This document shows positions 24,001-30,000 of a DNA stretch of 63,966 bases, one piece after another; the first letter of the stretch is position 1; each line of letters opens with the position of its first letter. Made by a program: the position numbers. The DNA comes from Thermoplasmatota archaeon (lineage in GTDB: Archaea; Thermoplasmatota; Penumbrarchaeia; Penumbrarchaeales; EX4484-36): assembly GCA_029932465.1 (NCBI GenBank), contig JAOZQA010000005.1, positions 1 through 63,966 on the forward strand, given 5' to 3'.

Positions 24001-27000
24001 CCGTAGTTAGCAAGCTCCTCCGCGAAACCTAAGTCAACAATGGTATCAGCATAGGCTATGGAGGCCCCACCCCCCGCTACAAGAGTCCATATCCTGCCCC
24101 GGGGATTGAGCACCGTCAGTTTCAGCGATGCACCACTCCTTCGGTCTATCTCCTCGACGAACGCCTCCTCCGGGGAGAGCTTTCTGCCGAAGGGAGCTGG
24201 GAAATCAATGTCACCCCAGAGCTCAGCGTTGCGGAAGGATGCTGTGTCGTCAAGACGTGCCACGGTGTCTAGCGGATAGACCTTTCCGTCGGAGAGGGCA
24301 AAGGGGTTGATCTCAAGATATACGAAATCGAGCTTCACAAAGAACCTGTAGAGGCCTTTCAAGAACCTCATAACAAGCTCCTTTTCGCCCCCCTGAAGGT
24401 CCTCAAGAAGCCCTTGGAAGGCCTCCTGGCGGGGTGTGCCTTCCAGACCCATATTGGCCTTCTTCACGTATTTCCACATCTCCTCCACATCCACCCCCCC
24501 CCGGGTGGAGAAGTAGACTATATCGCCTTCCCTCTCGCTTAAGATGGCTGTGTAGAACTCCTTTTCGTGGGGAATATATCTCTCAATAAGGAAGTGGGTG
24601 AGTCTGTCGGTGGCCTTCCCGACGGTGATCTCCCGTCCCATGTTCTCCTCAAGGTACTTCAGCACCCCCTCCCAATCGGTGTTCACCTTCACAAGCCCCA
24701 GTTTACCCCTTTTTCCGAAGAGCATGTCCGGCTTCACCACAAGGGGGTGTTCAAGAAGCCAGGGGTGCTTCTCAGGGAGAGAGGAGAGGTCGTCGCCCTC
24801 CCTCACCAGTAAGATTCTAATATCGCCCAAGGCACCTTCAAACAGATCAACGTTCTCTTTCATCAACCTCTTCGCATCGTACTCTCTTATTCCTTTTCTC
24901 GCCATACGGCCGTCACCTCCAAACAGTGTCTCTGGTGAAGGGTGTGGGTCCCTTCACCAGTCCTTATCCGTTCACCGTGATGGGGGAAGAGGTTTCTTCA
25001 CTACTTTTTGGCGTAGTTTTCCCACTTCTTCTCCAGCTCAGGATCTTTGAGGGTCTCCATGACGTAATTGGCAAACTCCTCTCCCGTAGCCCCGTCGCTT
25101 CTGCCCGTCACCACCACGCGCCTCTCGTATATGGCACAGATGTCCAGGGCCTTCTCCAGTCTCTCGGCCTTATCCACAAAGCCCGCATGCCTAAGAAGCA
25201 TGGCTGCCGCCTTTATCATGCTTGAGGGGTCCGCGTATTTCGCCCTGCCTTCATGAACCATCCTAGGAGCGGAACCGTGGATAGCCTCGAACATAGCGTA
25301 GCGCTTCCCTATGTTGGCGGCACCCGCCGTACCCACCCCACCCTGTATCTGAGCTGCCTCGTCGGTGAGTATGTCTCCATAAAGATTAGGCAGGACGATC
25401 ACCCTGAACTGTGACCTGCGCGCGGGATCGATGAGTTTGGCGGACATTATATCCACGTACCAATCGTCCCATTCCACCTCCGGGTACTCCTTGGCAACCT
25501 CCTCCGCCACGGAGAGGAAGAGACCGTCTGTGGTCTTCACAACGTTCGCCTTCGTGACCACCGTCACCTTGTTTATGTTGTTCTTTCTAGCATAATCAAA
25601 GGCGAGGCGGATAATTCTCTCCGCTCCTTGGCGAGTAATAACCTTGAAATCGAATGCCAGGTCGTCGGTGACCATGATCCCTTTGGGGCCAAGAACGTAG
25701 GCGCCCTCTGTGTTCTCTCTGAAGAAAACCCAGTCTATGCCAAGCTCGGGCACCTTGACAGGCCTCACATTGGCGAAGAGGTCAAGCTCTCTTCTCATGG
25801 CAACGTTGGCGCTCTCTATGTTAGGCCAGGGGTCACCCTTTCTGGGGGTCGTGGTGGGCCCTTTGAGAATCAGGTGGCACTTCTTGAGCTCCTCGAGAAT
25901 TTCATCAGGAATGGCCTTGCCCACCTTCGCCCGGTTCTCTATTGTTAGGCCTTCTATGTCCCTGAAGACCACCTTGCCGTCCTCAACCTCCTTCTGAAGG
26001 AGGAACTCAAGGACCCTTCTAGCCTCCCGGCAGATATGAGGGCCTATGCCGTCGCCGCCCACAACGCCTATGATTATGGGCTTTATCTTGCTGTAGTCTA
26101 TCCAGTTGTCGTCTTTCTTCATCCGCTCGACCCTCGCGAGCTGTTCAACCACAAGGTTCTCAAAGTGGTCACTTGCCCTCTCTATCTCCTTACTATACCT
26201 CTCTCTCAACTCCTCTGTCATGTTTTCACCTCTCTTACGACATCGATTATCGTCCCATCTCTATACTCTACAAGGGCTGCAATATTCTCTCCGAAGGGTG
26301 GCTCCTTCTTTCCCCCCGTAAGGCTGTAGGCCTCCCTCCTCAACTCCTCTATATCCCTTATAGGAAGGTCGCTCCCCTCCAGCCTCTCTAAGAGGTCCTC
26401 TCTGCGTGGGTTTATGGCTATGCCCCTCTCTGTAACAACAGCATCAACAGTCTCCCCGGGGGTCACCACAGTGGTGACTTCCTCCACAACGCTGGGAAAT
26501 CTCCCGCGGATAAGGGGGACGGTGATTATGGTGAGTTTTGAGCCGGCTGCCACATCGCTGTGACCTCCTACAGGCTCTGCTAGATAACCGGAGGAATATG
26601 TCACGGTGTTCACGTTGAAGTTCTCATCCACCTCCGTAGCTCCGAGCACTGCCAGGTCCAGGAGGTTCACTAGGGTCCCCTTGTTGTGCGGATTGGCGTA
26701 GAACCCTATTGAGACCTCAAGGTGGTTCTTGTCCACCCGCATGGAGTCTATGGCGGTAAGGTCGAAGGCCTGGGCGGTGGTCAAGTACTCCACAAGGTCC
26801 TCCCGAAGCATGTCTACCAGATAGGAGGTGGTTCCTCCGTTCGCCCATCTGGCACGGATTCCCTTCTCCCTCATAAGCTCCGCAAGGAAGTTCACGAATG
26901 CCAGGGATATCCCGCCAGCGCCTGCCTGGAAGGTGAAACCCTCCTTCACGTAACCGGTCTCATACGCCAGCCTCACAGCGTCCTTAGCGATCTTGAGTCT

Positions 27001-30000
27001 TGTGGGGGAGGAAGTGACCTTAAGAGAGCCAAAAACGATGTCCTCCGGGTTCCCGATTTTATCGACTACAACCACATAATCAACATATTCCATCGAGATG
27101 GAGAAGCGGTCTAGGGGGAAGGGGACAAGGTTGTCCGTTATAGCAACAACTCTGTCGGCGTAGAGGGCATCAGCCATAGAATAGCTGAGCGGTCCACATG
27201 CAGATGGACCGTATACACCCGTAAGATTTCCCATCTCATCTGCTGTGGGCGCCCCGATGAAGGCTACATCAATGTGTAGCTCCCCGGCCTCTATAGCCCT
27301 CACCCTGCCCCCGTGGCTCCTTATCCTCACCGGTCGCTCAAGGTTGCCCTCAGAGACATACCTTCCTATTTTGCCTCTGAGCCCTCCTCCCTCAATATGC
27401 TTGACTACACCGTTCTTTAAACACCTGAGAAGCACTTCCTCCTGGCAGGGGAAGAGGGAGGAGGGGGCGATGGTCAGGTTTTTAAAGCCCATCCTCTCCA
27501 GTGTCTCAAGGACCATGTTCATCACACGGTCCCCATTGCGGAAATGGTGGTGGAAAGATATCGTCATGCCGTCCGTCAAGCCCACCCTTTTGACCGCTTC
27601 CTCTATGGACCTTAGAATCTTCTGCTGTCCCGGTCTGCTCAGATGATATAGTCTGGCGCCGTATTTCCTCTCCCTTTGGGGAGGGGTGACAAAGGGGCCC
27701 CGATACGGCAGGAGCTTCACCCCATCGATTTCAACGGGGATCCTCCGTTCCGCCCCGTTTATCACCCACTCCATCGCTACTCCTCCCTGCTTAGGAGGCC
27801 CGCCGCCTTCGCCCTCTCAAGAATCCTCTCCGCCCTCTTCACAATGGGTCTGTCGATCATTTTGCTTCCCAGAGCAGCCACCCCAGAGCCCTCCTTTTTC
27901 GCCGTCTCGAGGGCCTCAATGACCCTTCTGGCGTACTCTATCTCCTCCTCCGTGGGGGTAAATGCTCTGTGGATGACCTCTATTTGGGAGGGGTGTATAG
28001 CAGCCTTGCCGTCGTAGCCCATCTTCCTCACTGTCACCGCTTCTTGGTAGAGTCCGTCGGAGTCCTTAATATCGGAGTAGACGGTGTCCAACGCCTGGAC
28101 TCCCGCAGCCCTCGCGGCGAGAAGTATCATCTGCCTTGCTGTGAACAGTGTCATTCCATCGGGAGTCCTCTCTCCGCCTAGATCAGCTGTCAGGTCCTCG
28201 CCCCCGATAGTTATAGCTTCAAGCCTCTTTGATGCCGACGCTATCTGGTAGGCGTTAAGAACACCTTTGGCAGTCTCTATGATGGCGAATAACTTTATCC
28301 TTCCAACCTCAAGCCCCTTCTCCTCCTCAAGCCTCGTTAGGAGCTCGTCGAGCTTTATCACGTCCTCCTCCGACTCCGTCTTGGGCAGGTAGATGCCCTC
28401 CAGCCTCTCGCACACGATCTCCAGAAGGTCCTTCTTCCCGTAGGGTGTGGAGAGGGGGTTTATCCTGACGGTGACTTCCGATCTCCCGAAATCCACCGTC
28501 TTCTCCTTGAGGAGCTCTCCCACAAGGAGTCTCGCCGCCAGCTTCTCCCCGGGGGAGACGGAGTCCTCAAGGTCGAAGGTGAGAACGTCTGCCCCGTAGA
28601 CCCCGGCGTTTACCAGCATGGAGGGATTGTTTCCCGGCACGTAGAGTCTGCTGCGCCTCAGTCTCATTCCTCCACCCCCATGGCCCGCAGAGCCGCCGCT
28701 CTCACCCTTGCCCTTATGGTGAAGTCCAGGGGGCTTCTCTCAACTATTTTCACCTTCGCGTTTTCTATCCCCATCTCCTTTAAGGTCTCAGCGGTGACCC
28801 TCTTTATGTCCTCCCCGAAGAACTCAACATCTTTTCCCTCCACCTCCACCTCAATTCCGCCCTTCCCGGGGAAGATTGTCACGATAAGATCCATCTTTTT
28901 ATCCGTCCCGGCTACTCCTTCCTTCACTAGCTTCTCATCTGGCATCGATTCCCCCCTTTCAGTACCTTCCCTCCTCTATCATTCTCTTGGTATATGGAAG
29001 CTTTCCTCCCGCCTTTATTATTTCCCTCTCCCTGGAGGAGAGGTCAAGGAGACCCTTGATGGTCTCACCTGTTGTGAGGTTCTTCACCTCGATCTCATCA
29101 CCCAGCTCAGATGTGGAAATCCTCAGAAGGTGCCCCTGATCCACCCTGTCGTAGGCGGAGGGCTCAGCGAAAATTATGGGTAGTATTCCGAAGTTTATCA
29201 GGTTGGCCCTGTGGATTCTTGCAAAGGACTTGGCGAGGACAGCCTTCACCCCCAGGTGCATCGGGGCTATTGCAGCGTGCTCCCTAGAGGAACCCTGGCC
29301 GTAGTTCTCCCCACCAACCACAAAGCCACCGCCCTTCTCTTTTGCCCTCTTGGGGAACGTGGGGTCAATGATCTCGAAGACGTGCTCAGATATTGCCGGG
29401 ATATTGGAGCGAAGGGGCAGGATCTTAGCCCCAGCGGGCATTATGTGGTCGGTAGTTATGTTATCTCCCACTTTCAGCAGGACCTCCCCTTCCAGCATCT
29501 CGGGAAGGGGACCTCTCACCTCAAGCGGTTTTATGTTGGGCCCGCGGTAGATTTCCACCATCTCCCCCCCCTTCTCCGGTGGATAAACGAAGAGGTCATC
29601 CATTATGGGGAGCTTCTCCGGGAGGCCTACCTTCGGCGCCTTCCCAAGCTTCCTTGGATCCGTCAGCACTCCGTACACAGCAGTGGCCGCTGCCGTTTGG
29701 GGGCTCACAAGGTAGACCTTCGCATCCTTAGTACCGCTTCTCCCCTCAAAGTTCCTGTTGAAGGTCCTCACCGAAACCCCACCCGTGGGCGGTGCGAATC
29801 CCATCCCAATACAGGGTCCACAGGCGGCCTCGAGAATCCTAACACCAGATCGTATTATATTCTTCAAGTAGCCGGCCTCTGTTATGGCCTGCATGACCTG
29901 CCGGGAGCCGGGGGAGAGTGATACATAGACATCCTCATGTATCTTCCTGTCCTTCAGTATCTCCGCCACAACCCTCAGGTCCATATAAGAGGAGTTAGTG

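What a model noticed while it worked through the whole genome (the two positions that open the first line are those of the whole stretch)
26218..28945. Citrate lyase (CitDEF) whose acyl-carrier subunit has lost the prosthetic-group serine, with CitC/CitG/CitX absent
The citD-citE-citF operon, embedded between aconitase and IDH/ATP-citrate lyase/pyruvate carboxylase, encodes a CitD with Lys where E. coli has Ser14, the attachment site of the phosphoribosyl-dephospho-CoA group, and the genome lacks all three enzymes that make, attach and acetylate that group. The same joint loss holds across the order and most Thermoplasmatota CitD, implying a carrier-free lyase working on free CoA thioesters with CitD kept as a scaffold; two further stand-alone CitF paralogs exist (g00472, g01232).
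Evidence so far: Alignment E. coli AGTLESGD vs AGTDKKMD. CitD present in 20 of 25 order relatives but CitG 0/25 (1/37 class), CitC 0/37, CitX 0/37, controls ring in E. coli. Residue at the Ser position is Lys/Arg in 13 of 13 class CitD read and in 14 further phylum CitD, several fused to CitE; two single-contig 99%-complete relatives also lack CitG. Operon order aconitase-citD-citE-citF conserved.
(Added by a program. Inside this text positions count along the whole contig: contig position 1 is position 1 of the stretch shown here. "Call 12" and the like, gene names such as g00115 and contig names such as C1 are that model's own, and its searches are not shown. The text may have been shortened before it was handed on; [...] marks where a part breaks off. 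The agent that wrote the report below was given it as the finding of a first reader that could run no searches.)

Follow-up and report, generated by a model that had tools for sequence, protein, structure and literature searches.

The report
Citrate lyase without its cofactor arm
This archaeon's three-gene citrate-lyase-type enzyme has lysine where the cofactor-holding serine should be and no detectable genes for building that cofactor, so it likely splits citrate using ordinary free coenzyme A, with the small subunit likely kept as a scaffold; no enzyme has been tested.

Summary
Confirmed and strengthened. The window holds intact citD-citE-citF between aconitase and isocitrate dehydrogenase. 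CitD has Lys17 at the E. coli Ser14 column. All 49 of 49 CitD-bearing genomes in a 201-genome phylum draw lack that serine (K20, R21, E7, Q1). CitG was found in 2 of the 49, CitX in 0, CitC in 0 over the cut-off. Control: CitG occurs in 44 of 45 genomes with Ser-CitD and 0 of 3 further Ser-less ones. CitD is under strong purifying selection. Best reading (inferred, not assayed): CitF moves CoA from free acetyl-CoA to citrate, CitE cleaves citryl-CoA, and CitD bridges the subunits. Citrate is favoured here by an isocitrate-type IDH signature, monomeric IDH in relatives and citrate-type CitF motifs. The two stand-alone CitF paralogs fall in a separate clade linked to homoaconitase-type genes. 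There is no closed reverse TCA cycle. Corrections: the aconitase-citDEF order holds for the order, not the phylum; the residue is not always Lys/Arg; the one 'Ser-keeping' genome has its Ser one column off. Not found in ten literature searches. This scan noted the same loss earlier in another archaeon and in bacterial CitD-CitE fusions. New variant of a known kind.

The parts
28664..28945 (-). CitD-family small subunit, 93 aa, Lys17 at the Ser14 column; likely scaffold
   Evidence: AF2 model pLDDT 86.5, top fold match MdcC 5vit_C Z 9.0, rmsd 2.5, 85 aligned, tied within 1 Z with unrelated rows
27777..28667 (-). CitE, citryl-thioester lyase (beta) subunit; start overlaps the citD stop
   Evidence: PF03328; TIGR01588 342.6 bits, below cut-off; 44% identity to E. 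coli CitE; core motifs as in other CitE
26218..27774 (-). CitF, CoA/ACP transferase (alpha) subunit with citrate-type F78 and R133 positions
   Evidence: TIGR01584 over cut-off; matches 2hj0 and 1xr4
28959..30890 (-). Aconitase (PRK07229/TIGR01342 type), first gene of the run
25001..26221 (-). Isocitrate dehydrogenase, type I-like, with the S-x-N-V-x-x-R signature
   Evidence: below all NCBIfam cut-offs
23625..24905 (-). ATP-citrate lyase subunit AclB
   Evidence: PF16114, PF24948
21787..23628 (-). ATP-citrate lyase subunit AclA
   Evidence: PF02629, PF00549, PF00285
19553..21382 (-). Pyruvate carboxylase B / oxaloacetate decarboxylase alpha-type carboxyltransferase with biotin domain
   Evidence: PRK09282 over cut-off
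18082..19548 (-). Biotin carboxylase (pyruvate carboxylase A type)
   Evidence: PRK08654 over cut-off
17226..17993 (-). Biotin-protein ligase, last gene of the run
   Evidence: TIGR00121 over cut-off
31054..32163 (+). Divergent helix-turn-helix regulator; a TrmB/HTH gene lies at the same place in order relatives

Best explanation
This is an intact CitDEF whose small subunit lacks the serine and whose genome shows no enzymes for the covalent cofactor, so it likely cleaves citrate on free CoA thioesters, with CitD likely serving as a scaffold. Inferred cycle: CitF converts acetyl-CoA + citrate to acetate + (3S)-citryl-CoA, then CitE converts citryl-CoA to oxaloacetate + acetyl-CoA. Acetyl-CoA is catalytic, so no ATP-dependent priming by CitC is needed. 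Inferred role: a step in a linear branch (glutamate, 2-oxoglutarate, isocitrate, citrate, then acetate + oxaloacetate, then pyruvate) in a probable peptide fermenter, next to ATP-citrate lyase. My odds by step: no covalent arm 0.9, free-CoA turnover 0.8, citrate as substrate 0.75, scaffold role 0.7, cleavage direction in vivo 0.6.
For: Shown: 49 of 49 phylum CitD lack Ser at column 14, and the residue varies among K, R, E, Q. CitG 2 of 49, CitX 0 of 49, CitC 0 of 49 over the cut-off, including two single-contig 99% genomes. In the control, CitG is in 44 of 45 Ser-CitD genomes and 0 of 3 Ser-less ones; CitX 2 of 2 against 0 of 3. Residues around the site are relaxed (E13 63 of 63 bacterial rows vs 15 of 34 archaeal; R85 63 of 63 vs 7 of 34), while G10, D16, R78 and the residue at column 82 stay fixed. 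CitD pN is 0.09-0.16 against pS 0.64-0.89 in 5 of 5 pairs. For citrate: the IDH signature, monomeric IDH PF03971 after citF in 8 of 10 order loci, and the CitF F/R pair in 13 of 13 aconitase/IDH-context archaeal rows and 55 of 63 other bacterial rows. From papers: EC 2.8.3.10 lists acetyl-CoA + citrate (PMC8085960); MdcC without prosthetic group bridges its complex, and MdcD-MdcE accept malonyl-CoA (PMC5534430). Sdh/Frd and MDH are 0 of 5 and GDH 5 of 5.
Against: No assay, and no expression data. CitE is below the citE cut-off. In the CitE tree, and by the midpoint root of the CitF tree, this lineage sits nearer the homoaconitase-context systems than E. coli, with modest support. ATP-citrate lyase in the same operon (23 of 26 order genomes counting G000) already cleaves citrate, so the lyase looks redundant. 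G000 has no citrate synthase besides the AclA domain and no Re-synthase, and no OadB; the operon could therefore run towards glutamate synthesis. Two Lys-CitD genomes do have a CitG homolog. The F/R positions are a correlation, not a shown citrate contact. The bacterial control set is mostly related Clostridia, which inflates its conservation figures.
Confidence: 0.6

Rival explanations
1. The enzyme is carrier-free but acts on homocitrate or another tricarboxylate/hydroxy acid rather than citrate, or the single CitE serves both substrates with different CitF paralogs.
For: G000 has a scattered HD protein, two HacAB-type dehydratases, a homoisocitrate-DH-like gene and two stand-alone CitF, with no homocitrate or isopropylmalate synthase. 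These genes cluster with citDEF in G003, Atribacterota, Aerophobetes and Acetomicrobium loci. There is only one CitE for three CitF.
Against: The window CitF is in the aconitase/IDH clade (FastTree 1.0) with the F/R pair. Homoaconitase-context CitF have L/N in 7 of 8 rows, as do 12 of 14 stand-alone copies. The adjacent dehydrogenase has the isocitrate signature. Glutamate mutase is 0 of 5, against citramalate.
Confidence: 0.2
2. CitD still carries a cofactor, attached at Lys17 or at another residue (such as Ser71) by an unrecognised enzyme.
For: Lys or Arg in 41 of 49 genomes. Ser71 lies at the E. coli Gly69 column and is Ser in 10 of 34 archaeal rows. An AcpS-type domain occurs in 17 of 19 family-f2 genomes.
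Against: The column is Arg, Glu or Gln in 29 of 49 genomes, which cannot share one acylation chemistry (inference). G000 and 31 others lack an AcpS-type domain. MdcG is 0 of 5. Most archaeal rows keep Gly at column 69 (22 of 34).
Confidence: 0.07
3. CitF and CitE work as independent free-CoA enzymes, for example making citrate or moving CoA between acetate, succinate and citrate, and CitD has a regulatory or chaperone role rather than a bridging one.
For: CitF often lies apart from citD/E in the phylum (CitF in 25 of 26 genomes, many unlinked). No citrate synthase in G000. SucCD-like genes are present without Sdh.
Against: CitD is fused to CitE in many relatives and overlaps citE here. Synthesis of citrate from acetate plus oxaloacetate is near zero in standard free energy and so unfavourable at cellular concentrations (recalled thermodynamics).
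Confidence: 0.11
4. The system is a decaying relic, or the missing genes are assembly gaps.
For: G000 is a 94.6% complete assembly in 88 contigs. citF is split in G190.
Against: Purifying selection on D, E and F. The absences repeat in 47 of 49 genomes, among them single-contig ones.
Confidence: 0.02

Closest known systems
Citrate (pro-3S)-lyase CitDEF with CitC, CitG, CitX (E. coli citCDEFXG, EC 4.1.3.6)
   Same: Same three subunits in the same order; 44-45% identity of CitE and CitF to E. coli; citD and citF models pass their cut-offs.
   Different: No Ser at column 14; no CitG, CitX or CitC found; archaeal host; lies between aconitase and IDH/ATP-citrate lyase rather than with citrate transport genes.
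Malonate decarboxylase MdcA-MdcC-MdcD-MdcE (PDB 5vit, PMC5534430)
   Same: CitD model matches MdcC (Z 9.0); same Pfam family; unmodified MdcC bridges the complex.
   Different: MdcC keeps Ser25 and is modified by MdcB/MdcG; the second enzyme is a decarboxylase, not a TIM-barrel lyase.
CitD-CitE fusion plus CitF of Ignavibacterium album (PMC3362086)
   Same: ATP-independent citrate lyase genes in a non-enteric anaerobe; a reverse-TCA role was floated.
   Different: The passages I saw do not mention the serine or the missing helper genes; I did not read its sequence. CitD is separate here.
Citryl-CoA synthetase + citryl-CoA lyase (rTCA2, PMC9802188) and ATP-citrate lyase
   Same: Pass through citryl-CoA, as inferred here.
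   Different: They spend ATP to make citryl-CoA and use a citrate-synthase-like lyase; here a CoA transferase and a CitE lyase would do it.
Stand-alone CitE-family acyl-CoA lyases (M. tuberculosis CitE, RipC, CLYBL, malyl-CoA lyase)
   Same: Same family; named as acyl-CoA lyases in PDB.
   Different: No CitD or CitF partner; the window CitE scores far higher on citE (343) than RipC (193).

Membership tests
Classical citrate lyase CitCDEFXG | CitD, CitE and CitF subunits encoded together | tested here: met
   (CitE below its equivalog cut-off)
Classical citrate lyase CitCDEFXG | Serine at CitD position 14 for the phosphoribosyl-dephospho-CoA group (site recalled; MdcC Ser25 analogue seen in PMC5534430) | tested here: not met
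   Lys17; Ser in 63 of 66 CitD from CitF-matched GTDB loci
Classical citrate lyase CitCDEFXG | CitG and CitX to make and attach the group | tested here: not met
   genome 94.6% complete; same in 47 of 49 relatives
Classical citrate lyase CitCDEFXG | CitC ligase to acetylate the group | tested here: not met
Classical citrate lyase CitCDEFXG | Cleaves citrate to acetate and oxaloacetate | not testable with these tools
   Indirect support only:
Citramalate lyase of the methylaspartate pathway | Glutamate mutase in the genome, as beside citDEF in L105 | tested here: not met
   PF06368 0 of 5 genomes; L105 context
Malonate decarboxylase | MdcG/MdcB modifiers and MdcA, MdcD, MdcE partners | tested here: not met
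   MdcG 0 of 5, CitG/MdcB family absent; neighbours are CitE and CitF; MdcA/D/E not searched genome-wide
Reverse TCA cycle (autotrophic) | Fumarate reductase and malate dehydrogenase to close the cycle | tested here: not met
   PF02910 0 of 5, PF02866 0 of 5; malic enzyme and fumarase not searched
Homoaconitase-context CitDEF (uncharacterised) | HD, HacAB, HICDH neighbours and the CitF L/N pair | tested here: not met
   Window CitF has F/R and aconitase/IDH neighbours; the C24 paralog has L/N

The most novel reading that the evidence does not exclude
Thermoplasmatota run a family of cofactor-free CitDEF enzymes on the free CoA pool, split into a citrate type and a homocitrate type. In this genome one CitD/CitE core pairs with three swappable CitF transferases, feeding both glutamate and lysine breakdown. 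With succinyl-CoA or another acyl-CoA as donor, it would turn citrate into acetyl-CoA without ATP, a further way of cleaving citrate.
Probability: 0.2. Interest if true: 0.8.

Novelty: new variant of a known kind. Interest (0 to 1): 0.6.

Why it matters
Citrate lyase is taught as needing a covalent cofactor and three helper enzymes. A natural three-gene version would show that the arm can be dropped. It would also mean that many genomes annotated as having an incomplete citrate lyase hold a working enzyme, and it would tie citrate cleavage to the free CoA pool. About half of the best 150 CitD-family representatives lack the serine (the profile is biased towards them), so the variant is common. 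It is easy to test with three soluble proteins, and it could give an ATP-free citrate-cleaving module for pathway engineering.

Tried and rejected
Complex prediction of CitF+CitE+CitD gave no verdict (score 0.86; control with CitF replaced 0.81) and is not used. No RNA holder was listed for the operon. No solved CitD by sequence. The CitD alignment was too divergent for a locus scan, so CitF was used; that scan favours close relatives and returned few bacterial Ser-less systems. The sigma-70 promoter and terminator scan is not suited to archaea and was ignored. Literature searches found no description of a serine-less CitD; most subscription papers are not held, PMC134981 was not held, and no supplements were read. 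Rejected: pseudogene; citramalate lyase; closed reverse TCA cycle; CitG homologs of the phylum as CitD modifiers (6 of 8 are in genomes without a CitD match); Lys as a conserved new attachment site; CitD-CitE fusions as orphans (CitF found in 25 of 26 such phylum genomes).
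Full report
Observation. The - strand carries a run of ten co-oriented genes: aconitase (28959-30890), citD (28664-28945), citE (27777-28667), citF (26218-27774), an IDH-family dehydrogenase, aclB, aclA, a pyruvate carboxylase B-type gene, a biotin carboxylase and a biotin ligase. A helix-turn-helix gene points away from it. CitD and CitF pass their NCBIfam cut-offs; CitE's best model is citE but it scores 343 against 443. With E. coli K-12 CitD, the motif aligns without gaps and puts Lys17 at Ser14. 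That Ser14 is the attachment site in CitD is recalled, not read in a paper here. It fits the MdcC Ser25 site (PMC5534430, passages) and the fold match of the CitD model to MdcC (pLDDT 86.5; Z 9.0, top row but within 1 Z of unrelated folds).

Missing machinery. G000 (94.6% complete) shows no CitG, CitX or CitC by Pfam search or by tblastn with the E. coli proteins, and no MdcG or AcpS-type enzyme. The roles of CitG, CitX and CitC are as given in PMC10798043 (passages). In a draw of 201 phylum genomes, 49 have a CitD-family match. I read all 49: none has Ser at the column (K 20, R 21, E 7, Q 1). A second copy in G034 has Asn. Of the 49, CitG was found in 2, CitX in 0 and CitC in 0 over the cut-off (one sub-threshold hit). 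The two with CitG have Lys-CitD, and 6 of the 8 CitG hits in the phylum are in genomes without a CitD match.

Control. A CitF scan of GTDB gave 69 loci, 65 with a readable CitD (66 proteins): Ser 63, Lys 2, Asp 1. I passed 49 of these 65 loci (48 genomes) to a genome-wide CitG search. It was present in 44 of 45 Ser genomes and 0 of 3 Ser-less ones. CitX was in 2 of 2 Ser genomes tried and 0 of the 3 Ser-less. These genomes are kin, mostly Clostridia, so this is not a statistical test. Among the best 150 of 1364 representatives found with a Ser-less-biased profile, 69 of 151 rows have Ser. Of 10 Ser-less proteins looked up, 4 clusters had named members: Deltaproteobacteria, Thermoplasmata, Bacteroidota/Bacillota labels and WOR-3. 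The loss is therefore not confined to archaea.

CitD is kept. In 5 of 5 pairs CitD has pN 0.09-0.16 against pS 0.64-0.89, near or somewhat above CitE and CitF. Residues around the site that are fixed in 63 bacterial Ser rows are relaxed in 34 archaeal rows (E13, D67, A70, R85), while G10, D16, R78 and the Ala at column 82 stay fixed. I infer that the modification surface was released and a binding surface kept. In malonate decarboxylase the homologous MdcC, purified without its group, is the bridging subunit (PMC5534430, section 10 and passages). CitD is fused to CitE in many phylum members.

Mechanism. [quoted passage not shown] That CitE cleaves free citryl-CoA, and that deacetylated citrate lyase turns over with acetyl-CoA, is recalled. 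The inferred cycle needs only catalytic acetyl-CoA, which explains why CitC is also gone. None of this was assayed.

Substrate. The phylum holds two contexts. Type A is aconitase-citD-citE-citF-IDH, in 10 of 10 order loci fetched, G034 and L036; the IDH is monomeric PF03971 in 8 of the 10 and aclAB is within the fetched stretch in 5. Type B goes with an HD protein, HacAB-type dehydratases and a homoisocitrate-DH-like gene, as in G003 and in Ser-bearing Atribacterota, Aerophobetes and Acetomicrobium loci. The window's dehydrogenase has the S-x-N-V-x-x-R segment of solved isocitrate dehydrogenases, not that of homoisocitrate dehydrogenase. In a FastTree of 104 CitF (rows under 450 aa and one redundant row, L035, left out; midpoint root), the archaeal rows group at 0.97, type A at 1.0, and both G000 stand-alone copies fall in the sister clade with type B. 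Two positions track context: F/R in 13 of 13 type A and 55 of 63 other bacterial rows; L/N in 7 of 8 type B rows and 12 of 14 stand-alone rows. The C70 paralog has M/R, the C24 paralog L/N. Citrate is thus the likely substrate of the window enzyme. Against this, the CitE tree places the lineage nearer type B than E. coli with weak support, and I could not show that these positions touch citrate. The homocitrate lead came from earlier scan notes; I tested it only by context, motif and tree.

Physiology. G000 has glutamate dehydrogenase, four 2-oxoacid:ferredoxin oxidoreductase alpha-type genes, ADP-forming acyl-CoA synthetase-type genes and a SucCD-like pair. It shows no Sdh/Frd, MDH, glutamate mutase, OadB, citrate synthase or Re-synthase (four relatives each for 60, 61, 90, 92). 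So there is no closed cycle. A partial reverse TCA route from glutamate to acetyl-CoA has been proposed for another Thermoplasmatota class (PMC12220078, passages), and ACL-based rTCA for two phylum MAGs (PMC9802188, passages). ACL co-occurs in 23 of 26 order genomes. ACL run backwards plus the lyase sums to acetyl-CoA + ADP + Pi giving acetate + ATP + CoA, the reaction of the ADP-forming synthetase, so having both need not waste energy (inference). Direction cannot be read from sequence; a biosynthetic role for the operon through ACL stays open.

Comparison and verdict. It works like citrate lyase but fails three defining features of the classical system, so it is filed as a new variant. PMC3362086 (passages) notes a CitD-CitE fusion in Ignavibacterium without mention of the serine in what I saw. 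PMC2996986, PMC7164622 and PMC2735749 (passages) add nothing on it. Ten searches found no report of a serine-less CitD; older biochemistry and subscription journals are not held, and no supplements were read. The scan has noted the same loss in another archaeon and in bacterial fusions; those notes are unchecked and are not counted as support. Interest 0.6: well controlled genomically, widespread and simple to assay, but foreshadowed by known in-vitro chemistry.

Noticed in passing
G000 C40:3-1688, C66:30322-32203, C54:1-1050, C37:14579-15124 (L172, L173, L168, L169): Two HacAB-type dehydratases, a homoisocitrate-DH-like gene and an HD protein are scattered in a genome with no homocitrate or isopropylmalate synthase; the same set clusters with citDEF elsewhere, suggesting an undescribed degradative route.
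   Followed up: partly
L037, L038, L039, L044: Bacterial citDEF with Ser and CitG sit with HD, HacAB, HICDH-like genes (PrpD, aminotransferase or aldehyde:ferredoxin oxidoreductase in some): a cofactor-bearing lyase probably not for citrate.
   Followed up: partly
G119:C9:80357, G059:C80:4403, G094:C33:35224, G065:C54:26209: An AcpS/PPTase domain lies inside open frames of about 3,700 aa in order relatives, in some next to a POR_N match; possibly a giant fatty-acid-synthase-like protein in an archaeon.
   Followed up: no
L088 (Peptoniphilus sp.), L100 (Fusobacterium sp.): Ser-less CitD on long CitF branches apart from the archaeal clade, both genomes without CitG or CitX: likely independent losses; L100's CitE and CitF motifs are strongly altered.
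   Followed up: partly
L125 (G190:C22:56154-57567): citF is split into two frames (343 + 221 aa); frameshift or assembly error not resolved.
   Followed up: no
L108 (G034:C58): A second CitD-CitE fusion in G034 has Asn at the Ser column and rewritten CitE metal-site motifs.
   Followed up: no
L036: A MAG labelled Thermococci carries the same aconitase-citD-citE-citF-idh block, CitF 75% identical to the window's; transfer between archaea or binning not resolved.
   Followed up: no
window 36350-40099 (+): 1249-aa ORF with repeated extracellular-type domains, one membrane segment and a long Pro/Ala-rich tail.
   Followed up: no
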